Positions 32,531 through 55,226 are shown, numbered from the stretch's first letter. The stretch: DNA of 64,000 nucleotides from a virus (IMGVR_UViG_3300043424_000354:44632-108631), one strand, 5' to 3'. Numbers and translations: made by a program. The notes: generated from the letters alone by a model not told the origin.

Positions 32531-32590
32531 ATAATTATTTATTGATTTGAAACCCTATGTTAACTCGTTCCACCGCTGTAATAGAACGGA

Positions 32591-32624
32591 TGGTAGTTTT
32601 TTCTGTTTCGAGGAAAAACTACCA
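32591..32624 (-). terminator. Hairpin closing the tmRNA coding piece
   Basis: TGGTAGTTTTTTCT...AGGAAAAACTACCA inverted repeat just after the tag stop codon. Confidence 0.6.
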
Positions 32625-32933
32625 AAACCCAAGGAGATCACGCTGCTAGGCGCATCTCAAAGGCAACATTATCGTTTGCTGCATTTACGTTTTGCGGGCA
32701 CTTTACCCAAGCAATCAGTCTACTCTCGCCTTCAACTCGCAGTCGAATCCTAAGTACGCCCCCATCATAGATACTGCCCGTTACTGACGCATCACGCAAT
32801 CTCGTCTTGGGTTTTTATTTCGCTACGCTGGAAGATACCCTATCTCCCTTGTGCCACTTGACAGTATCTATGGTGGAGGCGAGGGGAGTTGCACCCCTGT
32901 CCTACGAAGCATTCAGTTTGTATCAACAACTGA
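32591..32933 (-). ncRNA. ssrA: Circularly permuted two-piece tmRNA: acceptor piece ~32933-32871 ending CCA, intervening segment 32870-32764, coding piece from 32763; tag frame 32682-32638 AANDNVAFEMRLAA
   Basis: GGGGGCG / CGCCTCC-ACCA acceptor stem with G3.U wobble; T-arm AGGGG-TGCAACT-CCCCT; ANDN...LAA tag; acceptor piece precedes the coding piece. Confidence 0.93.
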
Positions 32934-32938
32934 TAATC

Positions 32939-32969
32939 TATTTATACTATACTGATCTTTAAAAGTCAA
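32939..32969 (-). promoter_or_regulatory. Composite sigma70-type and T4-late promoter for the tmRNA
   Basis: TTGACT-N17-TATAAA whose -10 is part of TATAAATA. Confidence 0.8.
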
Positions 32970-47824: not shown

Positions 47825-47994
47825 TGTCTACATCAATCCACGACCAGGAACTCGATACGCACTTCGGTCGAGTCGAGAGCGAACTCTACTCACTAAAGGA
47901 AGAACCATCCGAAGATATTGTGTATTTTGATTTCAAGAATCCAAATACATTCCTACTTACTTGGACGTTGCACGATATATTCCGTCGAAGTTAG
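47824..47994 (+). CDS. Small hypothetical protein
   Basis: TAATG coupling; 3' end overlaps the cyclase gene. Confidence 0.5.
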   Translation: MSTSIHDQELDTHFGRVESELYSLKEEPSEDIVYFDFKNPNTFLLTWTLHDIFRRS

Positions 47995-50008
47995 CAGGAG
48001 GTTCTCCCTCCATGCGCTCAAGCATCATATCGTAATAATTAACTAACTCACCTTGCCAGCACTTCTTTAAGTCGCTGGCAAATTGTTTAGCAACTTCCCA
48101 TTTACCTGCACGATATAAAGTCAAGAACTTCTCGTGTTGAGTTTGTCCTAGATGATCAAAGTTTTCTAGAACAGTATAGATTCTAGCAGGTTCAGTCTTA
48201 CCCTTGACTGCGATAAGATCAAGTTCGACTACTTGGTATGTATCCAGAACCTGCTCAGCAGTCTCGGGTCCAATGACGATTTTAACGCCGTAAGGTTTGC
48301 TTTGACCTTCGAGACGAGAGGCAAGATTAACCCCATCACCAAGGCAAGTATAATCAAAACGCTGATCGCTGCCCATATTGCCAACAACCACAGTGGCAGT
48401 GTTAATGCCAAGACCCATTCCAAAGGGTGGGGTTCCTTCTGCCACGACTTCTGCATTAAACTTCTCCAAATCTTTAAGCATCTGGAAAGCAGTTCTTACT
48501 GAATCCAAAGCATGTTGTGGGTTATCAACGGGAGCATTCCAGAATGCCATCTGAGCATCCCCGATATACTTATCTAGCGTTCCCTTGTTCTCTAGAATCG
48601 CTCGAGTCATTACTGTCATATAACGATTCATGATTGAAGTAAGACCTTCTACATCTTCACCGTAGTGTTCCGAAATAGCAGTAAATCCACGAACGTCGGT
48701 GAACATAATTGACAGTTGTTGTTTTGTTCCACCCAACTTGAGCAACTCTGGTTGTTTCTGTAGTTGAGCGACAAGATCTGGTGACAGATAAGTTCCGAAC
48801 TGCTTCTTAATTTGCTGCTTCTGTAGATATTCACTTATGAATTTGGCAGTGTAGATATGGATATAGATTAGCGCGATCGCGAAAACGTTAAACGTCACAT
48901 CGAGAAGAATACCCTTACTCGCGAATAGATATACTGGTAGATAGAAATATCCACCGAGTAAAACAGCAATATAAATTATAGAGAAACGAAATCTCGAGAG
49001 AATGATCAATGCAAGAGCAAGACCCAGAAAAGCAGCAAGATCTGCAAGTTGACCCCACACAGGAATCGAAACAGAGTCTCCATTTATCAGAGTTTCAAGA
49101 ATACTCGCCTGAAGGAAGTGGGGATGTTGCGCACCTGATGGAGTCGCTACAGGATTCGAAATACCAGCAGCAGTTACGCCAACAATCACAATTTTACCAT
49201 TCAGGTCAGGTAAAGGATCCTCTCCAATTTCGACTGACGAAAATTGGTAATTCGGATTAACAAACACGCGACCGTATTCATCGGTCTTTATAGTATCAAA
49301 TTGAGGAACACGTAATGCTTCAACACCAGTCTGATTTATCTTCGCTTGATACGAAGAGTCTCCTGCAGCTACACGCAGCATCTCTATCGCAAATGCAGGA
49401 TAGTATTCGCCATTTGATTGAGATAGAAGAGGAACTCGCCTCACAACCCCATCAGTCTCGGGTAGAGTCGACGTTATTCCTACACCGACAGCTGCTTCTT
49501 GCAGAACTGGAATATTACTTAGAACGCATGGGTATTGAGGAAGAAATTCGTTCGGTTGTCCGTCGCCGACGACAGCAACGCCAGTCCGAGCAATATTCTG
49601 GACTCCCTTACATGAATCAGTTGTTGTCTGACTCAGGACTACTGGATACTGCGTCAGAGTAGTCGCAAGAACTCCGTCAGTCCCCATCCGATCAGACTCA
49701 GGCATAAGTATAGTGCTACCAACAAGAGAAGCCCCTCTACCATAAATGTCACCAATAATTTTAGCATGGACCTCGCGTGGAAACGGCCACTGACCATATT
49801 TCTCAATTGCTTTCTCCCCGATATTGACAGTAACGATTTGTTCCGAATGCTGTGGCGAACCAAGCATTAAATAATCATAAAACTTCAGTCTGGTTGATTC
49901 AACCAGATAAGGATCAGCAAGTTTTACCGTAAGCAAAATACTAAAAGTAAATAACGCCAACCATGGCGAGAGTAGAACTTTTTTAGTTTTTTGTATAAGA
50001 GTATCCAT
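47957..50008 (-). CDS. CHASE2-domain class III adenylate cyclase (membrane-bound)
   Basis: GQWPFPR, DGVVRRVPL (CHASE2); three TM helices; MFTDVRGFT, LDKYIGDA, DYTCLGDGVNLASRLEG. Confidence 0.93.
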   Translation of the reverse strand: MDTLIQKTKKVLLSPWLALFTFSILLTVKLADPYLVESTRLKFYDYLMLGSPQHSEQIVTVNIGEKAIEKYGQWPFPREVHAKIIGDIYGRGASLVGSTILMPESDRMGTDGVLATTLTQYPVVLSQTTTDSCKGVQNIARTGVAVVGDGQPNEFLPQYPCVLSNIPVLQEAAVGVGITSTLPETDGVVRRVPLLSQSNGEYYPAFAIEMLRVAAGDSSYQAKINQTGVEALRVPQFDTIKTDEYGRVFVNPNYQFSSVEIGEDPLPDLNGKIVIVGVTAAGISNPVATPSGAQHPHFLQASILETLINGDSVSIPVWGQLADLAAFLGLALALIILSRFRFSIIYIAVLLGGYFYLPVYLFASKGILLDVTFNVFAIALIYIHIYTAKFISEYLQKQQIKKQFGTYLSPDLVAQLQKQPELLKLGGTKQQLSIMFTDVRGFTAISEHYGEDVEGLTSIMNRYMTVMTRAILENKGTLDKYIGDAQMAFWNAPVDNPQHALDSVRTAFQMLKDLEKFNAEVVAEGTPPFGMGLGINTATVVVGNMGSDQRFDYTCLGDGVNLASRLEGQSKPYGVKIVIGPETAEQVLDTYQVVELDLIAVKGKTEPARIYTVLENFDHLGQTQHEKFLTLYRAGKWEVAKQFASDLKKCWQGELVNYYDMMLERMEGEPPANFDGIYRATSK

Positions 50009-51437
50009 TACATGGTCCAGTCGTGCATGTTATTTCCATTTTCGCAGAGTCAGCGGCAGTCAAATTATTTTGCGAGACAGTCACACCAATTCCTGGATTA
50101 TTTAGTAAAAGTTGAAATTGCTTAGTAGAAGAACCAAGTTGAGTTACAGACGCAGTAACTCCACCGAATGGGGCATTGATTTCTAAGAAGTGATTTCCTA
50201 TACCTTCTTGTAAAGCACTGATATTATTAGAGTTTCCTAAAGCATTGATAAACAACGATTTTCCGTTTGCATCTTTTTGTTGTGCAGAGATTTGATTACC
50301 AATACCATTAGTAATAATTTCAGCATATTTACTTCCGTGATGTTGCGTCAGCGATACTACATTGTTATCACCAGATACAGAAACTTCAGCCAAGTTTTTA
50401 CCAATCGCTGTTGCCGCTGTTCCTTGATTAATAGTAATGCTGTTACCGCTACCATTGATAGTCATTGCTTGTGCGCCATTCACTCCGCGAACTTGATTCT
50501 GCTTAGAGAACTGTTCGATGTAAACCGAATTGTTAGAACCTGTTGCTGTAATGTAGATAGAGTTTTGCGTGACTGCGTTGGTTTGATTAATCTTCAATGA
50601 TTGTGCATTAGATATCGCAGCGGCAGGATATGTCGGAGCAGAAGGTTCTGGCGCAGGCGCTGGTGGAGCAGAAGATCCAGCATTCGGAGCAACTGGTGTG
50701 AACGTTGTTCCGTTCAATGATGTAGTTCCCTGCATCTGATCAATGAATAGAATTGGTGACAATGCAGTATCACCGAGGTTGAACGAGGCAAATCCAAGAA
50801 GATAATTGCCATCTGTTGGAACAGTAAACACTGCGACCTGCCAACCAGTGGCACCATAAGATCCTACTGAATAGTTACCTGTGCCTTGGTTTGTGAACCC
50901 TAGAAGCGCATAGTCTTGCGTCTGCCCATTGATAGTTGCAGTTCCAGGTCCACCAGTAACAGTGATCAGAGAACCATCGTTATATGGAACATAGTCAGTT
51001 GAAAGATATTGCCAAGCATAGGTGTATGTAACACCTGCCTGTAGAAAGACTGTTCTACTAATCGAAGTCGCATTAGTTGGATACATGTTACCATTAGAAT
51101 AAATTGTATTTCTAATTGCCGTGATGGCAGAACTTTGTAGACCGAGTGTTGTCATCGCAGCATTAAACTGGGGAGAACTACCACCTGCTTGTAGAGAAAC
51201 CATGTATGAACCGTAAGGTGTGATAGTCCAACACTTACCGCCACCAGGACAATAGTTTTGCACACCAGTAGTTACTTGAACACCAGAACCATCGGAACTC
51301 CAGTTTGTTTTTAGCGCAGTAGAACCATTACTTGCTGTCCACCCAGCATAGTCGCCGTTCTCAAACCCGTAGTTCGTTACTTGTGCGAATGTTGGCATCG
51401 CAAAGAACAGTAGAAATAGAGTGATTAGTTTTTTCAT
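49983..51437 (-). CDS. Secreted protein: N-terminal beta-rich passenger domain, Pro linker, C-terminal curlin-like repeats
   Basis: Signal peptide; NYGFENG..GW; PPAPAPEP; repeats such as NSVYIEQ, NSITINQG, NNISALQEG. Confidence 0.7.
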   Translation of the reverse strand: MKKLITLFLLFFAMPTFAQVTNYGFENGDYAGWTASNGSTALKTNWSSDGSGVQVTTGVQNYCPGGGKCWTITPYGSYMVSLQAGGSSPQFNAAMTTLGLQSSAITAIRNTIYSNGNMYPTNATSISRTVFLQAGVTYTYAWQYLSTDYVPYNDGSLITVTGGPGTATINGQTQDYALLGFTNQGTGNYSVGSYGATGWQVAVFTVPTDGNYLLGFASFNLGDTALSPILFIDQMQGTTSLNGTTFTPVAPNAGSSAPPAPAPEPSAPTYPAAAISNAQSLKINQTNAVTQNSIYITATGSNNSVYIEQFSKQNQVRGVNGAQAMTINGSGNSITINQGTAATAIGKNLAEVSVSGDNNVVSLTQHHGSKYAEIITNGIGNQISAQQKDANGKSLFINALGNSNNISALQEGIGNHFLEINAPFGGVTASVTQLGSSTKQFQLLLNNPGIGVTVSQNNLTAADSAKMEITCTTGPCNGYSYTKN

Positions 51438-52579
51438 CTTGCACCTGTTTCTTGCATTACGGTGATATTACCTTGTGGTCTACCAGTTCCCGATGTTGTC
51501 CACTTATCGTCCATAAAGTTGTAAACATCTACTAATCCATTTTGAACAGATACGACTTGCGCTTCCGTTCCTTTTTCTAACCAGACAGTAATTGCTTGTT
51601 GTTTGTCATCTGACAATCTTGTATATACCCAACCGACTTGAACGTTCTTCTTGAATGTCGGTGACACATTAGTATAAACTGTTTCCGCTGGTTTACTTCC
51701 TTCATTAAACTCGGCGTAAACTTCTAGAAGTTCTTGTGGCGTTGCTTGACGAATCATAGCAACTGTAACTTGTTCTGTATTATCATTCGTGCCTGCATCT
51801 GGGTCTTTGTTATCATCTGATGCTGCCTTTGCTGGATTAGTAAATTTCTTTAAACTATCTCTAGCAAGTTGCAGGAGACTTTGTCCATCATCTGTTTCCA
51901 ACGGAACAATCTGAACGTTATTATCTAACGCCTTCATCAAAGGATTAATAATTACTGGTGGAGCAGGAGGAGCAAAGTTGTTTTCAACAACTGTTGCTTG
52001 GAATGGTTGAGTTAATGTGACTACGCCAGATGCTGTAATAACATCAATCATACCATTCGGACATTCTGCGGTCTGTTTAGTAATGTCTAATTCGTTATAG
52101 CATTCGGGAACAAGCACGACCGTAGAACGACCTGCTTCATCAACCGACATAACGAAGTCTGTGCCGCGAACTGCGATAGTGGCAGTTGGTGTGCGAATGT
52201 TTACACCTCGTGGGTTTGTTTTTGCGACTTTACCTGATGCGTATCTGACGGTACCAAGTGCGACCCGAAGTCCAAGTTTGCCCTTCGTCTTCCCTCCCCC
52301 ATCATAGACAAAGTCATCCACAAGAAGTCGAGAGTTTTCCGTAATGTTAACAGTAGTCGAGTCATTGAATGTAATCCTAAATCTGCCTTGACTGTTTGTA
52401 GAAACAGTATCCATTTTCTCAACGCCAGCACCTTTAGATGCTGGTGTAGTCTTGGCGCCACGCTTAATAGCACCACCGCCTCTGAAATCTGTTATCGACC
52501 CAATACCCGCAAAGGCAGGAGTCGATAACAGAAAAATCAGTAGAAGATTAGTGACCAGTCTTGATATTAAAGACACCAT
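51434..52579 (-). CDS. FecR-domain periplasmic protein
   Basis: Signal peptide ending PAFA; ITFNDST.V.ITENS, GTVRYASG, IRTPTATIAVRGTDF. Confidence 0.85.
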   Translation of the reverse strand: MVSLISRLVTNLLLIFLLSTPAFAGIGSITDFRGGGAIKRGAKTTPASKGAGVEKMDTVSTNSQGRFRITFNDSTTVNITENSRLLVDDFVYDGGGKTKGKLGLRVALGTVRYASGKVAKTNPRGVNIRTPTATIAVRGTDFVMSVDEAGRSTVVLVPECYNELDITKQTAECPNGMIDVITASGVVTLTQPFQATVVENNFAPPAPPVIINPLMKALDNNVQIVPLETDDGQSLLQLARDSLKKFTNPAKAASDDNKDPDAGTNDNTEQVTVAMIRQATPQELLEVYAEFNEGSKPAETVYTNVSPTFKKNVQVGWVYTRLSDDKQQAITVWLEKGTEAQVVSVQNGLVDVYNFMDDKWTTSGTGRPQGNITVMQETGAR

Positions 52580-53321
52580 TTGATCCCACGCTGTTAATAT
52601 TGATCACAGTTTCAGAAACACCATATTGTTGTGTTGTTACAGTGTTGAGTGAACCTGTCAGATTAACATAAAGCGAGTGACCGAATGTTCCACCAGTACC
52701 AGTTTGCGTAACATCAAAGTCATTATAGTTACCTGTCACCAGAATAGTTTGTGACGCATTTGGCGATAGTGCATCCATATTGATTGTGTTATTGTTACCA
52801 CTGAAGTCCATCGAGTTACGGATATTAGCACCCGAACCGTGGAAAACAAACGAGTTGTTGTTACCAGTGAATCTTGCATTCATATCAAGTTGATTACATG
52901 ACGAATCTGTTTGTAATGTTCCGCAACGGATATCTGCTGTATTCAGATCGCCGATTTGACGAATAGTCACATCTGCTATTCCATTGGATCCCGTGTCGGA
53001 TACGATACCCATGTAGAGGGAGTTTCCGTTACCTGTTTGAGTGACGATGACACTTTGGTTATCACCACGTAGGTAAATAGGATCAACGGAAGAACCAATA
53101 ATATTGGCAGTACCAGTTTGAACAATGTTAACATCTACGTTTCCACCTTCTTGATCAATGTATACTTTATTTGTTGTTGCAACAGCATTCGCATCTGTTT
53201 CATTAGGCGAAGTTGTTACGATTGCTGGAGGAGTTGGTGCTGTTGGTAGCACAGTTTGTGCGATCGCAGATGTTCCATAACAAAGAGCAGCGCCAACTAA
53301 TAAAAACTTACTTAGTTTCAT
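52548..53321 (-). CDS. Curlin-like (CsgA/CsgB-like) secreted repeat protein
   Basis: Signal peptide; NKVYIDQ.G, IVQTGTAN, VTQTGNGN, IRQIGDLN, VTQTG, TQQYG repeats; true ATG at 53321. Confidence 0.75.
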   Translation of the reverse strand: MKLSKFLLVGAALCYGTSAIAQTVLPTAPTPPAIVTTSPNETDANAVATTNKVYIDQEGGNVDVNIVQTGTANIIGSSVDPIYLRGDNQSVIVTQTGNGNSLYMGIVSDTGSNGIADVTIRQIGDLNTADIRCGTLQTDSSCNQLDMNARFTGNNNSFVFHGSGANIRNSMDFSGNNNTINMDALSPNASQTILVTGNYNDFDVTQTGTGGTFGHSLYVNLTGSLNTVTTQQYGVSETVININSVGSNGVFNIKTGH

Positions 53322-54132
53322 TTGTTGTTTCCTTTTGTTTGAATCTCCATAGATTTTTGGTCTCACCATCCTTGATCAACTCAACAACGGCCGTTTCTAT
53401 GGCAGAACGGATCGCATAACTACCTGCTTCATTACTTGTTTGTTGTCCATCAAATTCAAACGCTTTAGTCGCCATGTCGAAGAATTTAAAAGCAGTAACA
53501 CCTTCAGATGTAGAAAGAACAGTCTTTTCTACTGTAACCGAATTGAGAACTTCGCCAGTCTGGACAGAAACCAGACGAAGACTAATTGTTACCTGATCTT
53601 GGGTGTACTGCTGATATGGACCGATGCCAAGGAATCTAGCACCAGTACCACCAGTTTTAATGTTCGAGTTATAATCAATGATACCACCTTCTAAGATGAT
53701 ACCAGCAACCTTGAGTGGTGGCAGAGGTTCAGCACCCTCGCCAGAAAGTTGTTCGCGCATTTGGCGAACAAGTTGACGTTCTTTGATCAGCGAATCAATA
53801 CCTACACGTTCGACTGGTGTAAACCATTTTCCACCACCAGTATCCTGTAGCGTCTTGATCAAATATGCATCAGCACCTTGAGTTACCGCAGTCGAGAAAC
53901 TTGCAAGAGTTGAAGATGGTTTACGTTGACCAGTTCTATCGGTGAATGAATACAGCGCGATAGGAATTGGTTGACCATCCAACTCTGGTAGATTCTTGAA
54001 TAACTTTGGATTAGCAAAACGCTTTACTTCTGCATCTTCTCTCAGAAGATATGATTGGTTGGTTGCAGGATGAAGTGCACCAACACAACCTGTAGTTGCT
54101 AGAAGAAGCGGAAGAAGAATAAACTTTTTCAT
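53308..54132 (-). CDS. csgG: Curli secretion channel CsgG (lipoprotein)
   Basis: Lipobox ATTGC; FTDRTGQRKP...FSTAVTQG, WF.PVER, L.KERQ, LEGGIIDY, GGTGARFLGIG, LRLVSVQTGEV. Confidence 0.93.
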   Translation of the reverse strand: MKKFILLPLLLATTGCVGALHPATNQSYLLREDAEVKRFANPKLFKNLPELDGQPIPIALYSFTDRTGQRKPSSTLASFSTAVTQGADAYLIKTLQDTGGGKWFTPVERVGIDSLIKERQLVRQMREQLSGEGAEPLPPLKVAGIILEGGIIDYNSNIKTGGTGARFLGIGPYQQYTQDQVTISLRLVSVQTGEVLNSVTVEKTVLSTSEGVTAFKFFDMATKAFEFDGQQTSNEAGSYAIRSAIETAVVELIKDGETKNLWRFKQKETTNETK

Positions 54133-54141
54133 GACTTCTCC

Positions 54142-54591
54142 TTAAAATGCAAATGTAGCAATAGGAACGACAACAACCGTAGTATTGCCATTCTTATCGA
54201 CCACTGTTAGTTTAACTTCTGTTCCAGTCTTGACATAACTCACCGAATTACCATCAAGATTGAATGTTCCAGCATTTGCTGTTCCGCCCTCGGCAAACAG
54301 ATTATTGGAAAGTTGCGTAGCAAGTTGGGCATAAACCTGTGAAGTAAACAGCGCCATGAATTTTGCAAGAGGAGTATTTGCTGCTTCCGCTTTTGCGAGT
54401 GCTGCCTTTGCTGCCTCGGCGTCCTTAATTGCTTGTTCGCGCGAACGTTCTTGCGCATCAATCGACTGAACGTGCGAAGACCACCCATAACCTGTAAAGG
54501 AAGGCGACTTAAACTGTTGTACTATTGGGTCTGCGTATACTGGACTACTTAGACTTAGTAGCGTCAGGAGCACCATCGCTCGTTTTAGCAT
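54142..54591 (-). CDS. csgF: Curli assembly protein CsgF-like
   Basis: Signal peptide then QFKSPSF.G; F...SQVYAQLA.QL..NLF; adjacent to csgG. Confidence 0.82.
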   Translation of the reverse strand: MLKRAMVLLTLLSLSSPVYADPIVQQFKSPSFTGYGWSSHVQSIDAQERSREQAIKDAEAAKAALAKAEAANTPLAKFMALFTSQVYAQLATQLSNNLFAEGGTANAGTFNLDGNSVSYVKTGTEVKLTVVDKNGNTTVVVVPIATFAF

Positions 54592-54682
54592 CTTTCTCTT
54601 CCTTTTTGTTTTTGTTGTCAGAAGAAAAATTTAAGTCAAAAGTAAATACTTTGAGGATCTCAATCTTTAGGTTTAATGTCAT
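54545..54682 (-). CDS. Possible 45-aa protein bridging the membrane-protein genes and csgF
   Basis: GAGGA SD; MTLNLKIEILKVFTFDLNFSS...; overlaps both neighbours. Confidence 0.35.
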   Translation of the reverse strand: MTLNLKIEILKVFTFDLNFSSDNKNKKEEKDAKTSDGAPDATKSK

Positions 54683-54926
54683 TGCTATGATCCTCTTTGA
54701 TTTGTAATACTACGCTCACCTTCTGGTTTAATCTAATTAAATCGTTATCTAGCATACGAATGCGGTCAATTAGCGCGATTAGAATTACATTCGTCTCACC
54801 AATCAACGGCATCAATTTATCAGTAACAAACTTATAGATGAACCAAACAAAGTAACCCATGCCGACAGCGGCAACGATAGGGAACCCGTATTGTTTAACT
54901 AGTTCTGCAATTACGGTAGGATCCAT
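54660..54926 (-). CDS. Small single-TM plus coiled-coil membrane protein (holin/YvrJ-like)
   Basis: YGFPIVAAVGMGYFVWF, LIDRIRMLDND. Confidence 0.7.
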   Translation of the reverse strand: MDPTVIAELVKQYGFPIVAAVGMGYFVWFIYKFVTDKLMPLIGETNVILIALIDRIRMLDNDLIRLNQKVSVVLQIKEDHSNDIKPKD

Positions 54927-55213
54927 TAATCCCTCCGTGCGTCATTCTTCCCGTCTGCTCTTGCTATTCTATCCAAGTCTGGTTTAAGACCTAGTGCGGA
55001 ACTAACAACTGCATCAACGCGAATAATATCATGGTTCATCGTTTTCACTCGGTTGTCTAACCCCATGATAATACCCTGCATCCCCTTGATCGCCTTAACA
55101 ACGCTCTCGAGAATGTAGTTGATAACAAAGTATACGAAGACACCCGCGAGTAATGCACCCGCGATAGGAAAACCTACGTCTCCGATTAATTTGAATATAA
55201 CGTCGTATGTCAT
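54926..55213 (-). CDS. Small single-TM plus coiled-coil membrane protein, paralog of 54660..54926
   Basis: VGFPIAGALLAGVFVYF, LDNRVKTMNHD. Confidence 0.7.
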   Translation of the reverse strand: MTYDVIFKLIGDVGFPIAGALLAGVFVYFVINYILESVVKAIKGMQGIIMGLDNRVKTMNHDIIRVDAVVSSALGLKPDLDRIARADGKNDARRD

Positions 55214-55218
55214 ACGAC

Positions 55219-55226
55219 TATTTATA
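55219..55226 (-). promoter_or_regulatory. T4-type late promoter heading the curli/cyclase operon
   Basis: TATAAATA 5 nt before ATG 55213. Confidence 0.8.

What the first reader, a model, noticed from the sequence alone, without database searches (positions are those of the whole stretch)
47957..55226. Late-expressed curli-like secretion operon wired to a FecR / CHASE2 adenylate cyclase signalling relay
Seen: one TATAAATA late promoter heads two paralogous small membrane proteins, csgF, csgG, a curlin-like protein, a FecR protein, a passenger-plus-curlin protein and a CHASE2 cyclase, all overlapping or closely abutting. The cyclase keeps both metal-binding Asp residues, the ATP-selecting Lys/Thr and the catalytic N...R. 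Established: CsgG/CsgF form the type VIII amyloid secretion pore, and csgF/csgG homologs have been noted in some aquatic T4-like phages. CHASE2 cyclases make cAMP from periplasmic cues in alphaproteobacteria. Inference: a complete trans-envelope system (outer-membrane pore, surface amyloid, periplasmic relay, inner-membrane cyclase, holin-like pair). It could sense the outside of the infected cell and tune lysis timing, aggregation or superinfection exclusion, as a functional analogue of T4 lysis inhibition.
Basis: partly seen in the sequence, partly recalled or inferred. Interest (0 to 1): 0.88.

Follow-up and report, generated by a model that had tools for sequence, protein, structure and literature searches.

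The report
Phage curli pore with FecR-CHASE2 cyclase
An uncultured T4-like water phage carries an intact eight-gene block (two small membrane proteins, a curli-type outer-membrane pore, two fibre-like proteins, an exported FecR-fold protein, a membrane adenylate cyclase); the block is real, but it was already published for SAR11 and OM43 phages and its function is still untested.

Summary
Eight intact minus-strand genes (47957-55213) follow a TATAAATA box. They encode two paralogous about 90-aa single-pass membrane proteins, CsgF, CsgG, a curlin-repeat protein, a secreted FecR-domain protein, a protein with a lectin-like head and a curlin-like tail, and a CHASE2 class III cyclase with all six catalytic residues.

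The same gene order occurs in phages Melnitz and HTVC008M and in about 60 IMG/VR contigs. At least 587 viral contigs carry the cyclase.

The module, including FecR and the cyclase, was published for pelagiphages (PMC9599517; also PMC7029224 and PMC9004378). This scan has noted it more than 300 times on other DNA. This copy is a new member, from a clade whose nearest relative comes from a mostly freshwater dataset.

- FecR followed by a CHASE2 cyclase is a conserved bacterial unit, with a divergent Crp regulator and a TPR protein, and it carries no CsgG.
- The small proteins that the literature calls "histidine kinase" show no kinase domain.
- No cAMP receptor domain was found in the phage genomes searched. 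It was found in 2 of 41 genomes of a Pelagibacter MAG's family.
- Two Caulobacteraceae MAGs carry the whole cassette. In the one examined the flanking genes are bacterial, and its cyclase nests among the phage copies.

The holin and lysis-inhibition readings have no support.

The parts
55219..55226 (-). T4-type late promoter box TATAAATA, 5 nt before the g1 start codon and directly after the stop codon of the upstream gene. It predicts a leaderless or nearly leaderless late mRNA.
   Evidence: the spacing is conserved in L007, L013, L016, L024, L036, L045 and L082
54926..55213 (-). g1: 95-aa protein with one N-terminal membrane helix (GFPI motif), then an amphipathic helix and a conserved charged tail. 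Function unknown. Not a histidine kinase.
   Evidence: (phrog_18771)
54660..54926 (-). g2: 88-aa paralog of g1 (30% identity) and a separate ortholog group. Start and stop are coupled to g1 (TAATG).
54142..54591 (-). CsgF homolog with a signal peptide.
   Evidence: PF10614, E=1.6e-16; phrog_35372
53308..54132 (-). CsgG homolog, an outer-membrane lipoprotein channel with a lipobox-like TTG-C at residues 13-16. Of the E. coli constriction residues, F56 is kept, and Y51 and N55 are both Ser.
   Evidence: PF03783, 2.5e-53; E. coli CsgG 3X2R, E=1.2e-46
52548..53321 (-). g5: secreted curlin-repeat protein (CsgA/B-like). Residues 1-49 have low model confidence; residues 50-257 are a predicted beta-solenoid with G-x-x-N recurring about every 22 to 29 residues.
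   Evidence: CsgB model E=2.4e-4; pLDDT 76, pTM 0.73
51434..52579 (-). g6: exported FecR-domain protein. It has a signal peptide and the FecR domain spans residues 57-157. There is no cytoplasmic anti-sigma domain, so it is not a FecR-type anti-sigma factor.
49983..51437 (-). g7: signal peptide, beta-sandwich head resembling carbohydrate-binding modules (about residues 30-246), Pro-rich linker, and a curlin-like beta-solenoid tail (272-484). The head differs between phage clades, and the gene is missing in many relatives.
47957..50008 (-). g8: CHASE2 class III adenylate cyclase. A membrane helix lies at about residues 10-28, the CHASE2 domain at 31-335, predicted membrane helices at about 319-381 and the catalytic domain at 429-613. 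D438, K480, D484, T554, N561 and R565 are intact. It is the last gene of the operon, bounded by convergent plus-strand small ORFs.

Best explanation
This is a new copy of the published 'viral curli' module of aquatic phages: a type VIII secretion pore and fibre proteins joined to a FecR-domain protein and a CHASE2 adenylate cyclase. The likely working is as follows. The eight genes are probably transcribed late as one unit. CsgG and CsgF form an outer-membrane channel. The curlin-repeat protein g5 and the lectin-headed curlin protein g7 are exported and build or decorate beta-solenoid fibres on the infected cell. The exported FecR-domain protein acts as periplasmic partner of the CHASE2 sensor, which sets the cAMP output of the cytoplasmic cyclase domain. 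The two small membrane proteins are module-specific accessories of unknown role. Shown here: gene identities, intactness, conserved linkage, conserved catalytic residues, predicted folds, and the FecR/CHASE2-cyclase pair as a pre-existing bacterial unit. Inferred: co-transcription, fibre formation, FecR-CHASE2 contact, any link between the pore half and the sensor half, and whatever cAMP does. Confidence that this is the published module is about 0.95. Confidence in this outline of the mechanism is about 0.5.
For: Domain hits. The same gene order in Melnitz and HTVC008M and in about 60 IMG/VR contigs. At least 587 viral contigs and more than 7,600 database proteins related to the cyclase. The module with FecR and the cyclase is described in PMC9599517, with metatranscriptome expression reported there. 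Catalytic residues are conserved across 44 cassette cyclases. g5 and the g7 tail are predicted beta-solenoids, and the g7 head resembles CBM61, CBM4 and HpiC1. FecR followed by a CHASE2 cyclase recurs in Beta- and Gammaproteobacteria together with a divergent Crp-family regulator and a TPR protein. The S. meliloti cyaD1 locus and the Burkholderia LysM-FecR/CHASE2 kinase operon show the same pairing. Late box spacing is conserved.
Against: Nothing has been tested experimentally in any phage. Buchholz et al. saw no clumping of Melnitz-infected cells. The bacterial FecR/CHASE2 units work without CsgG, so the sensor half need not read the pore half. No cNMP-binding or GAF domain was found in the 108 kb held of this phage, and no cNMP-binding domain in Melnitz, HTVC008M or a complete 171-kb relative. 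CsgE is absent. g7 scores below the Pfam curlin cut-off, and its model is only moderately confident (pLDDT 66). Read-through from the upstream gene cannot be excluded, and no terminator was found after the cyclase.
Confidence: 0.6

Rival explanations
1. Lysis-timing device. The small membrane pair acts as holin and antiholin, or the CsgGF pore acts as a gated pinhole. The FecR/CHASE2 cyclase senses the outside, for example superinfection, and delays or triggers lysis, as T4 lysis inhibition does.
For: g1 and g2 have a holin-like build: a short N-terminus, one membrane helix and a charged helical tail. The operon has a late promoter. The lysis idea was proposed from synteny in PMC9004378.
Against: No holin family matches in Pfam, PHROGs or NCBIfam, and a profile search of the PDB gave only noise. 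In the cultured-phage collection g1-like genes occur only in the cassette-bearing phages Melnitz and HTVC008M, which does not fit a general lysis gene. In the loci of the two Caulobacteraceae MAGs the cassette has no g1/g2 match. No endolysin or spanin lies in the cassette. CsgG sits in the outer membrane and cannot depolarise the inner membrane.
Confidence: 0.1
2. Two functions that only travel together. The curli half makes fibres for aggregation ('sibling capture') or for masking receptors against superinfection. The cyclase half separately reprogrammes host physiology through cAMP. There is no signalling link between the two halves.
For: Aggregation and exclusion were proposed in PMC7029224 and PMC9599517. 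The bacterial FecR/CHASE2-cyclase units lack CsgG. PMC9599517 reports that FecR and the cyclase are not always present in viral curli regions. g7 has a variable lectin-like head of the kind expected for a surface-binding protein.
Against: The order csgF-csgG-curlin-FecR-(g7)-cyclase is kept across deep divergence, down to 39-40% cyclase identity, with overlapping reading frames. A curlin-type gene sits between FecR and the cyclase. The whole block also moved together into Caulobacteraceae genomes.
Confidence: 0.2
3. Uptake pore. An ungated CsgG channel (no CsgE) lets nutrients or cofactors into the periplasm of the infected cell, and FecR and the cyclase report on the incoming solute.
For: CsgE is absent. 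The idea was raised in PMC7029224 and PMC9599517.
Against: It does not explain two conserved secreted curlin-type proteins or CsgF. g6 lacks everything that defines iron-sensing FecR apart from the shared periplasmic domain.
Confidence: 0.05

Closest known systems
Pelagiphage viral T8SS (curli) region with FecR and adenylate cyclase (PMC9599517; CsgGF first noted in PMC7029224; Melnitz MZ577097 and HTVC008M KC465899)
   Same: The same genes in the same order: two small upstream genes, csgF, csgG, a curlin-repeat gene, FecR, a second curlin-type gene and a CHASE2 cyclase.
   Different: The cyclase is only 39-40% identical to those of the cultured marine phages, and it belongs to a separate, large clade. 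The nearest MAG-binned relative of that clade comes from a mostly freshwater lake and estuary dataset. The flanking genes differ: a TET/glycosyltransferase locus and a radical-SAM operon here, against a thymidylate synthase (Melnitz) or dioxygenase genes (HTVC008M), an ssb gene and baseplate genes there. The g7 head is of another type.
E. coli curli system (CsgG, CsgF, CsgE, CsgA, CsgB; PDB 3X2R, 6L7A)
   Same: CsgG aligns over almost its whole length (E=1.2e-46). The CsgF family and curlin repeats are present.
   Different: There is no CsgE, and no CsgC or CsgD was found among the cassette proteins. Constriction residues Y51 and N55 are replaced by Ser. The fibre proteins are longer. One carries a globular head. 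A sensor cyclase is attached.
Sinorhizobium meliloti cyaD1 locus: CHASE2 adenylate cyclases CyaD1/CyaD2/CyaK, the FecR-domain protein SMc02177 and the Crp-like regulator Clr (PMC5498481)
   Same: A CHASE2 class III cyclase working in the same system as a periplasmic FecR-domain protein. Removing CHASE2 makes that cyclase constitutive.
   Different: That system has its own cAMP-binding regulator (Clr), and the phage has none. It has no T8SS. The paper found the FecR-domain gene not to be required for signal perception.
Bacterial four-gene unit Crp | FecR, CHASE2 cyclase, TPR (found here in Sterolibacterium, Rhodocyclaceae, Arhodomonas and others), and the Burkholderia LysM-FecR / CHASE2 histidine kinase operon (PMC5192318)
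   Same: A FecR-domain gene lies directly upstream of a CHASE2 sensor gene.
   Different: 22-27% identity to the phage cyclase. It sits next to envelope polysaccharide genes in the two loci annotated. There are no CsgG or curlin genes. The substrate Lys is replaced by Q, H or N in 14 of 23 bacterial homologs.

Membership tests
Viral curli (T8SS) + FecR + adenylate cyclase module of pelagiphages (PMC9599517) | CsgF, CsgG and a curlin-repeat gene in that order | tested here: met
   Pfam hits; order shared with Melnitz, HTVC008M and about 60 contigs
Viral curli (T8SS) + FecR + adenylate cyclase module of pelagiphages (PMC9599517) | FecR-domain gene after the curlin gene, then often a second curlin-type gene, then an adenylate cyclase | tested here: met
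Viral curli (T8SS) + FecR + adenylate cyclase module of pelagiphages (PMC9599517) | one or two small genes in front of csgF, called 'histidine kinase' in the paper | tested here: met
   g1 and g2 occupy that position. The kinase label itself fails; see the histidine kinase row. I could not see the paper's figure to confirm that its HK genes are g1/g2 homologs.
Canonical curli type VIII secretion system | CsgG channel and CsgF | tested here: met
Canonical curli type VIII secretion system | CsgE periplasmic gate | tested here: not met
   no PF10627 match in the 108 kb held; that record is an estimated 66% of the genome
Canonical curli type VIII secretion system | curlin-repeat subunits that form amyloid | tested here: inconclusive
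   g5 passes the Curlin_rpt cut-off (27.3 bits against 20.7) and g7 does not (15.2 bits). Both are predicted beta-solenoids. Amyloid formation cannot be tested with these tools.
FecR-type anti-sigma regulators (FecI/FecR/FecA) | N-terminal cytoplasmic anti-sigma domain, a membrane anchor, and a partner ECF sigma factor and TonB-dependent transducer | tested here: not met
   g6 has a signal peptide and its FecR domain starts at residue 57. No sigma factor or transducer was found among the eight cassette proteins. The rest of the genome was not searched for them.
Class III adenylate cyclase with CHASE2 sensor | CHASE2 domain between membrane helices; a cyclase domain with two metal Asp, a Lys plus Thr/Asp specificity pair, and Asn and Arg | tested here: met
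Histidine kinase (label given to the small genes in PMC9599517) | HisKA/DHp domain with a phospho-accepting His, plus an HATPase_c domain | tested here: not met
   88-95 aa in length. No HisKA or HATPase_c match even at E<=10 in Pfam, none in NCBIfam, and no kinase among the PDB profile hits.
Holins | membership of a known holin family, or linkage to an endolysin | tested here: inconclusive
   No holin family matched. Only the general architecture fits. The genes are linked to the cassette, not to a lysin.

The most novel reading that the evidence does not exclude
The cassette is a single trans-envelope sensor. The FecR-domain protein couples the state of the CsgG pore, or of the lectin-headed fibres, to the CHASE2 cyclase. 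The resulting cAMP is read by a receptor of a new kind, possibly the cassette-specific g1/g2 membrane pair, because neither the phages nor most sampled SAR11-family genomes encode a cNMP-binding domain. It would control a late-infection decision.
Probability: 0.12. Interest if true: 0.7.

Novelty: new member of a known kind. Interest (0 to 1): 0.25.

Why it matters
The module is among the most widespread accessory gene blocks of abundant aquatic phages. Its cyclase was found on at least 587 IMG/VR contigs, and PMC9599517 reports about 0.1% of assembled viral proteins in ocean viromes. Nobody knows what it does. This copy adds no new principle. It does extend the module to a large clade whose closest relative comes from a mostly freshwater dataset, whereas PMC7029224 reported that freshwater SAR11 myophages lack the operon.

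Tried and rejected
- Megablast of the cassette against cultured phages found no match. Only protein-level relatives exist.
- Histidine kinase reading of g1/g2: rejected.
- YvrJ or leaderless-bacteriocin likeness of the g1/g2 N-terminus: only weak leads (Pfam E=0.15, Atlas score 0.89, enterocin JSA E=0.16). Not used.
- Idea that the FecR protein ends in a curlin-like strand, based on the invariant Gln in an (I/V)x(I/V)xQ ending: hhalign against the curlin alignment gave probability 1.35%. Not supported.
- Search for a cAMP reader (cNMP_binding, GAF, GAF_2): nothing in the phage records.
- Foldseek of the g5 model found no significant PDB match. The weak matches were all beta-helix or solenoid proteins.
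- AU test of whether the Caulobacteraceae cyclase can lie outside all viral copies: 73 log-likelihood units worse but p=0.054, so not formally rejected.
Habitat rests on one MAG title and its paper.
- Rfam found no RNA family in the cassette.
- The terminator scan gave nothing convincing inside or after the operon.
Full report
**What is there.** On the minus strand between 47957 and 55226 lie eight intact genes. A TATAAATA box sits at 55219-55226, directly after the stop codon of the upstream gene and 5 nt before the first ATG. The genes are:
- g1 (95 aa) and g2 (88 aa), coupled by TAATG;
- csgF, after a 68-nt gap;
- csgG;
- a curlin-repeat protein, g5, whose signal peptide starts at the internal ATG at 53321;
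- a FecR-domain protein, g6;
- a 484-aa protein, g7;
- a 683-aa CHASE2 cyclase, g8.

From csgG onward every junction overlaps. Pfam gives CsgF (1.6e-16), CsgG (2.5e-53), Curlin_rpt (3.6e-6, above the cut-off), FecR (2.7e-13), CHASE2 (3.8e-37) and the class III cyclase domain (1.2e-19). PHROGs places six of the eight proteins in phage families of unknown function, and g1 and g2 fall in the same family.

**Details of the parts.**
- CsgG aligns with E. coli CsgG at E=1.2e-46. Of the three constriction residues, F56 is kept and Y51 and N55 are both Ser.
- CsgF, g5, g6 and g7 start with signal peptides, and CsgG has a lipobox-like TTG-C (read directly).
- g6 has no cytoplasmic anti-sigma part. It shares only the periplasmic FecR domain with the iron regulator, and its other weak relatives are Leptospira FecR-domain lipoproteins.
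- The cyclase has a membrane helix, CHASE2, further membrane helices and the catalytic domain.
- Aligned to Spirulina CyaC and Pseudomonas CyaB, the cyclase keeps both metal Asp (D438, D484), the ATP-type Lys/Thr pair (K480, T554), and N561 and R565.
- In 44 non-redundant cassette cyclases the two Asp, the Lys and the Arg are invariant. The Thr is kept in 39 and the Asn in 40.
- AlphaFold models give g5 as a strand-turn-strand solenoid from residue 50 (pLDDT 76, pTM 0.73). Invariant Gly/Asn positions recur about every 22 to 29 residues in its alignment.
- The g7 model is a beta-sandwich head, a Pro-rich linker and a solenoid tail (pLDDT 66).
- The g7 head resembles carbohydrate-binding modules and related jelly-rolls: CBM61 (probability 1.0, TM 0.58), CBM4-2, CBM22, HpiC1 and the gingipain adhesin domain. 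Weak Atlas leads point the same way.

**Conservation.** The same order of eight genes is found in Methylophilales phage Melnitz and Pelagibacter phage HTVC008M and in about 60 IMG/VR contigs. At least 587 viral contigs encode a relative of the cyclase, and more than 7,600 database proteins match it at E<=1e-20.

Variation is informative:
- g7 is absent in many loci, where FecR is followed directly by the cyclase.
- Where g7 is present, its head comes in at least five unrelated versions on the same kind of tail.
- In some loci g1 and g2 sit a few kb downstream on the other strand.
- In the cultured-phage collection, g1-like genes occur only in the phages that have the cassette.
- The box-to-ATG spacing of 5 nt recurs in the window's close relatives. 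On T4 rules (my own knowledge) this puts the late transcript start on the A of the ATG.

**What is already known.** CsgG and CsgF in pelagimyophages were reported in 2020 (PMC7029224). Melnitz was described in 2022, with the proposal that the pore regulates lysis (PMC9004378). PMC9599517 described the full region in podo- and myo-pelagiphages: "HK", CsgF, CsgG, CsgA/B, FecR, a second CsgA/B and an adenylate cyclase. It also reported expression in metatranscriptomes and discussed aggregation, superinfection exclusion and uptake. Earlier agents of this scan reached the same conclusion on more than 300 findings in other genomes.

1. The FecR/CHASE2-cyclase pair is a bacterial unit.
   - A scan of bacterial genomes with a FecR alignment found about 20 loci in Beta- and Gammaproteobacteria where the FecR-domain gene is followed directly by a CHASE2 cyclase, with no CsgG.
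   - In most of these loci a Crp-family gene lies divergently upstream and a TPR gene lies downstream.
   - In the two loci annotated, the unit sits beside envelope polysaccharide genes.
   - This matches the S. meliloti cyaD1/SMc02177/Clr system and the Burkholderia LysM-FecR/CHASE2 kinase operon.
   - The "iron regulator" reading of FecR is therefore unlikely. A partner-of-sensor reading is better supported.

2. The proteins at the "HK" position have no kinase domain at any threshold and are too short to hold one.

   - No cNMP-binding or GAF domain was found in the 108 kb held for this phage.
   - No cNMP-binding domain was found in Melnitz, HTVC008M or a complete 171-kb relative.
   - Only 2 of 41 sampled genomes of the family of a Pelagibacter MAG have a cNMP-binding domain.
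   - The host of this phage is unknown, so this point bears mainly on the published SAR11 phages.

4. The cassette also occurs in bacteria.
   - Two Caulobacteraceae MAGs carry csgF-csgG-curlin-curlin-FecR-cyclase, with 54% cyclase identity to the window.
   - In the locus examined (L088) the flanking genes are housekeeping genes such as methylmalonyl-CoA mutase and acyl-CoA dehydrogenase.
   - These loci gave no g1/g2 match.
   - In a cyclase tree the L088 copy nests among the viral copies (support 95 and 100).
   - Only 1 of 151 sampled genomes of that family has the close copy.
   - Forcing the L088 copy outside the viral clade costs 73 log-likelihood units, but the AU test gives p=0.054. 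Phage-to-bacterium transfer is favoured but not proven.

5. Habitat. The nearest MAG-binned relative (87-89% identity) comes from the Chattahoochee lakes and estuary dataset. The clade is probably freshwater, whereas PMC7029224 found no curli operon in freshwater SAR11 myophages.

**Reading.**
- Best supported: late expression of a curli-type pore that exports one or two curlin-type proteins, combined with an imported periplasmic-partner/CHASE2 sensor that makes cAMP.
- Inferred: whether the two halves communicate. This rests only on tight, deeply conserved linkage and on a curlin-type gene sitting inside the sensor pair.
- Unsupported: the holin/antiholin and lysis-inhibition readings have no support beyond protein shape and promoter class.

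**Verdict.** This is a new member of a known, published and still unexplained kind of module.

Noticed in passing
window 55202-55218 (minus strand): A 7-bp hairpin (GTCGTAT / ATACGAC) encloses the g1 start codon. Its 5' arm lies between the late box and the ATG, so it would be missing from a leaderless late transcript but present in read-through transcripts, where it would mask the start codon. In 12 relatives 65.5% of cells pair (shuffled mean 59%), and 4 of 7 pairs change on both sides (3 of 500 shuffles reach that). This is suggestive only.
   Followed up: partly
window 32547-32963 (ARAGORN) and 32638-32934 (Rfam), minus strand: A permuted (two-piece) tmRNA gene with tag peptide AANDNVAFEMRLAA (Rfam RF04321, 75 bits). 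A TATAAATA box lies at its 5' end (32939-32946). The same kind of gene is published for Melnitz.
   Followed up: partly
window, whole: All nine TATAAATA boxes are on the minus strand (expected 3.95 on both strands together). This fits a long run of late genes on that strand.
   Followed up: no
L088 6065-12085 and L090 (Caulobacteraceae MAG contigs): The complete csgF-csgG-curlin-FecR-CHASE2 cyclase cassette occurs in two Caulobacteraceae MAGs, with no g1/g2 match. In L088 the flanks are bacterial housekeeping genes, and its cyclase nests among the phage copies. This counters the published statement that FecR and the cyclase are not found in bacterial T8SS operons.
   Followed up: partly
L096-L127 (bacterial loci): A conserved unit: a divergent Crp-family regulator, then a FecR-domain protein, a CHASE2 cyclase and a TPR protein. 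In 14 of 23 of these and other bacterial cyclases the substrate-defining Lys is Q, H or N, so some may not make cAMP.
   Followed up: partly
g7 homologs in L002, L021, L041, L044, L079 compared with window 49983-51437: At least five unrelated N-terminal heads sit on a shared curlin-like tail. This modular swapping is typical of binding proteins.
   Followed up: partly
L057-L064, L079, L085, L089: In these loci the g1/g2 pair lies downstream of the cyclase on the opposite strand. It is still linked to the cassette, so it is not always under the same promoter.
   Followed up: no
window 51434-51460 (C-terminus of g6): All 13 aligned FecR-domain proteins end in an (I/V)x(I/V)xQ strand with an invariant Gln, like the start of a curlin repeat. 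A profile comparison gave no support (probability 1.35%).
   Followed up: yes
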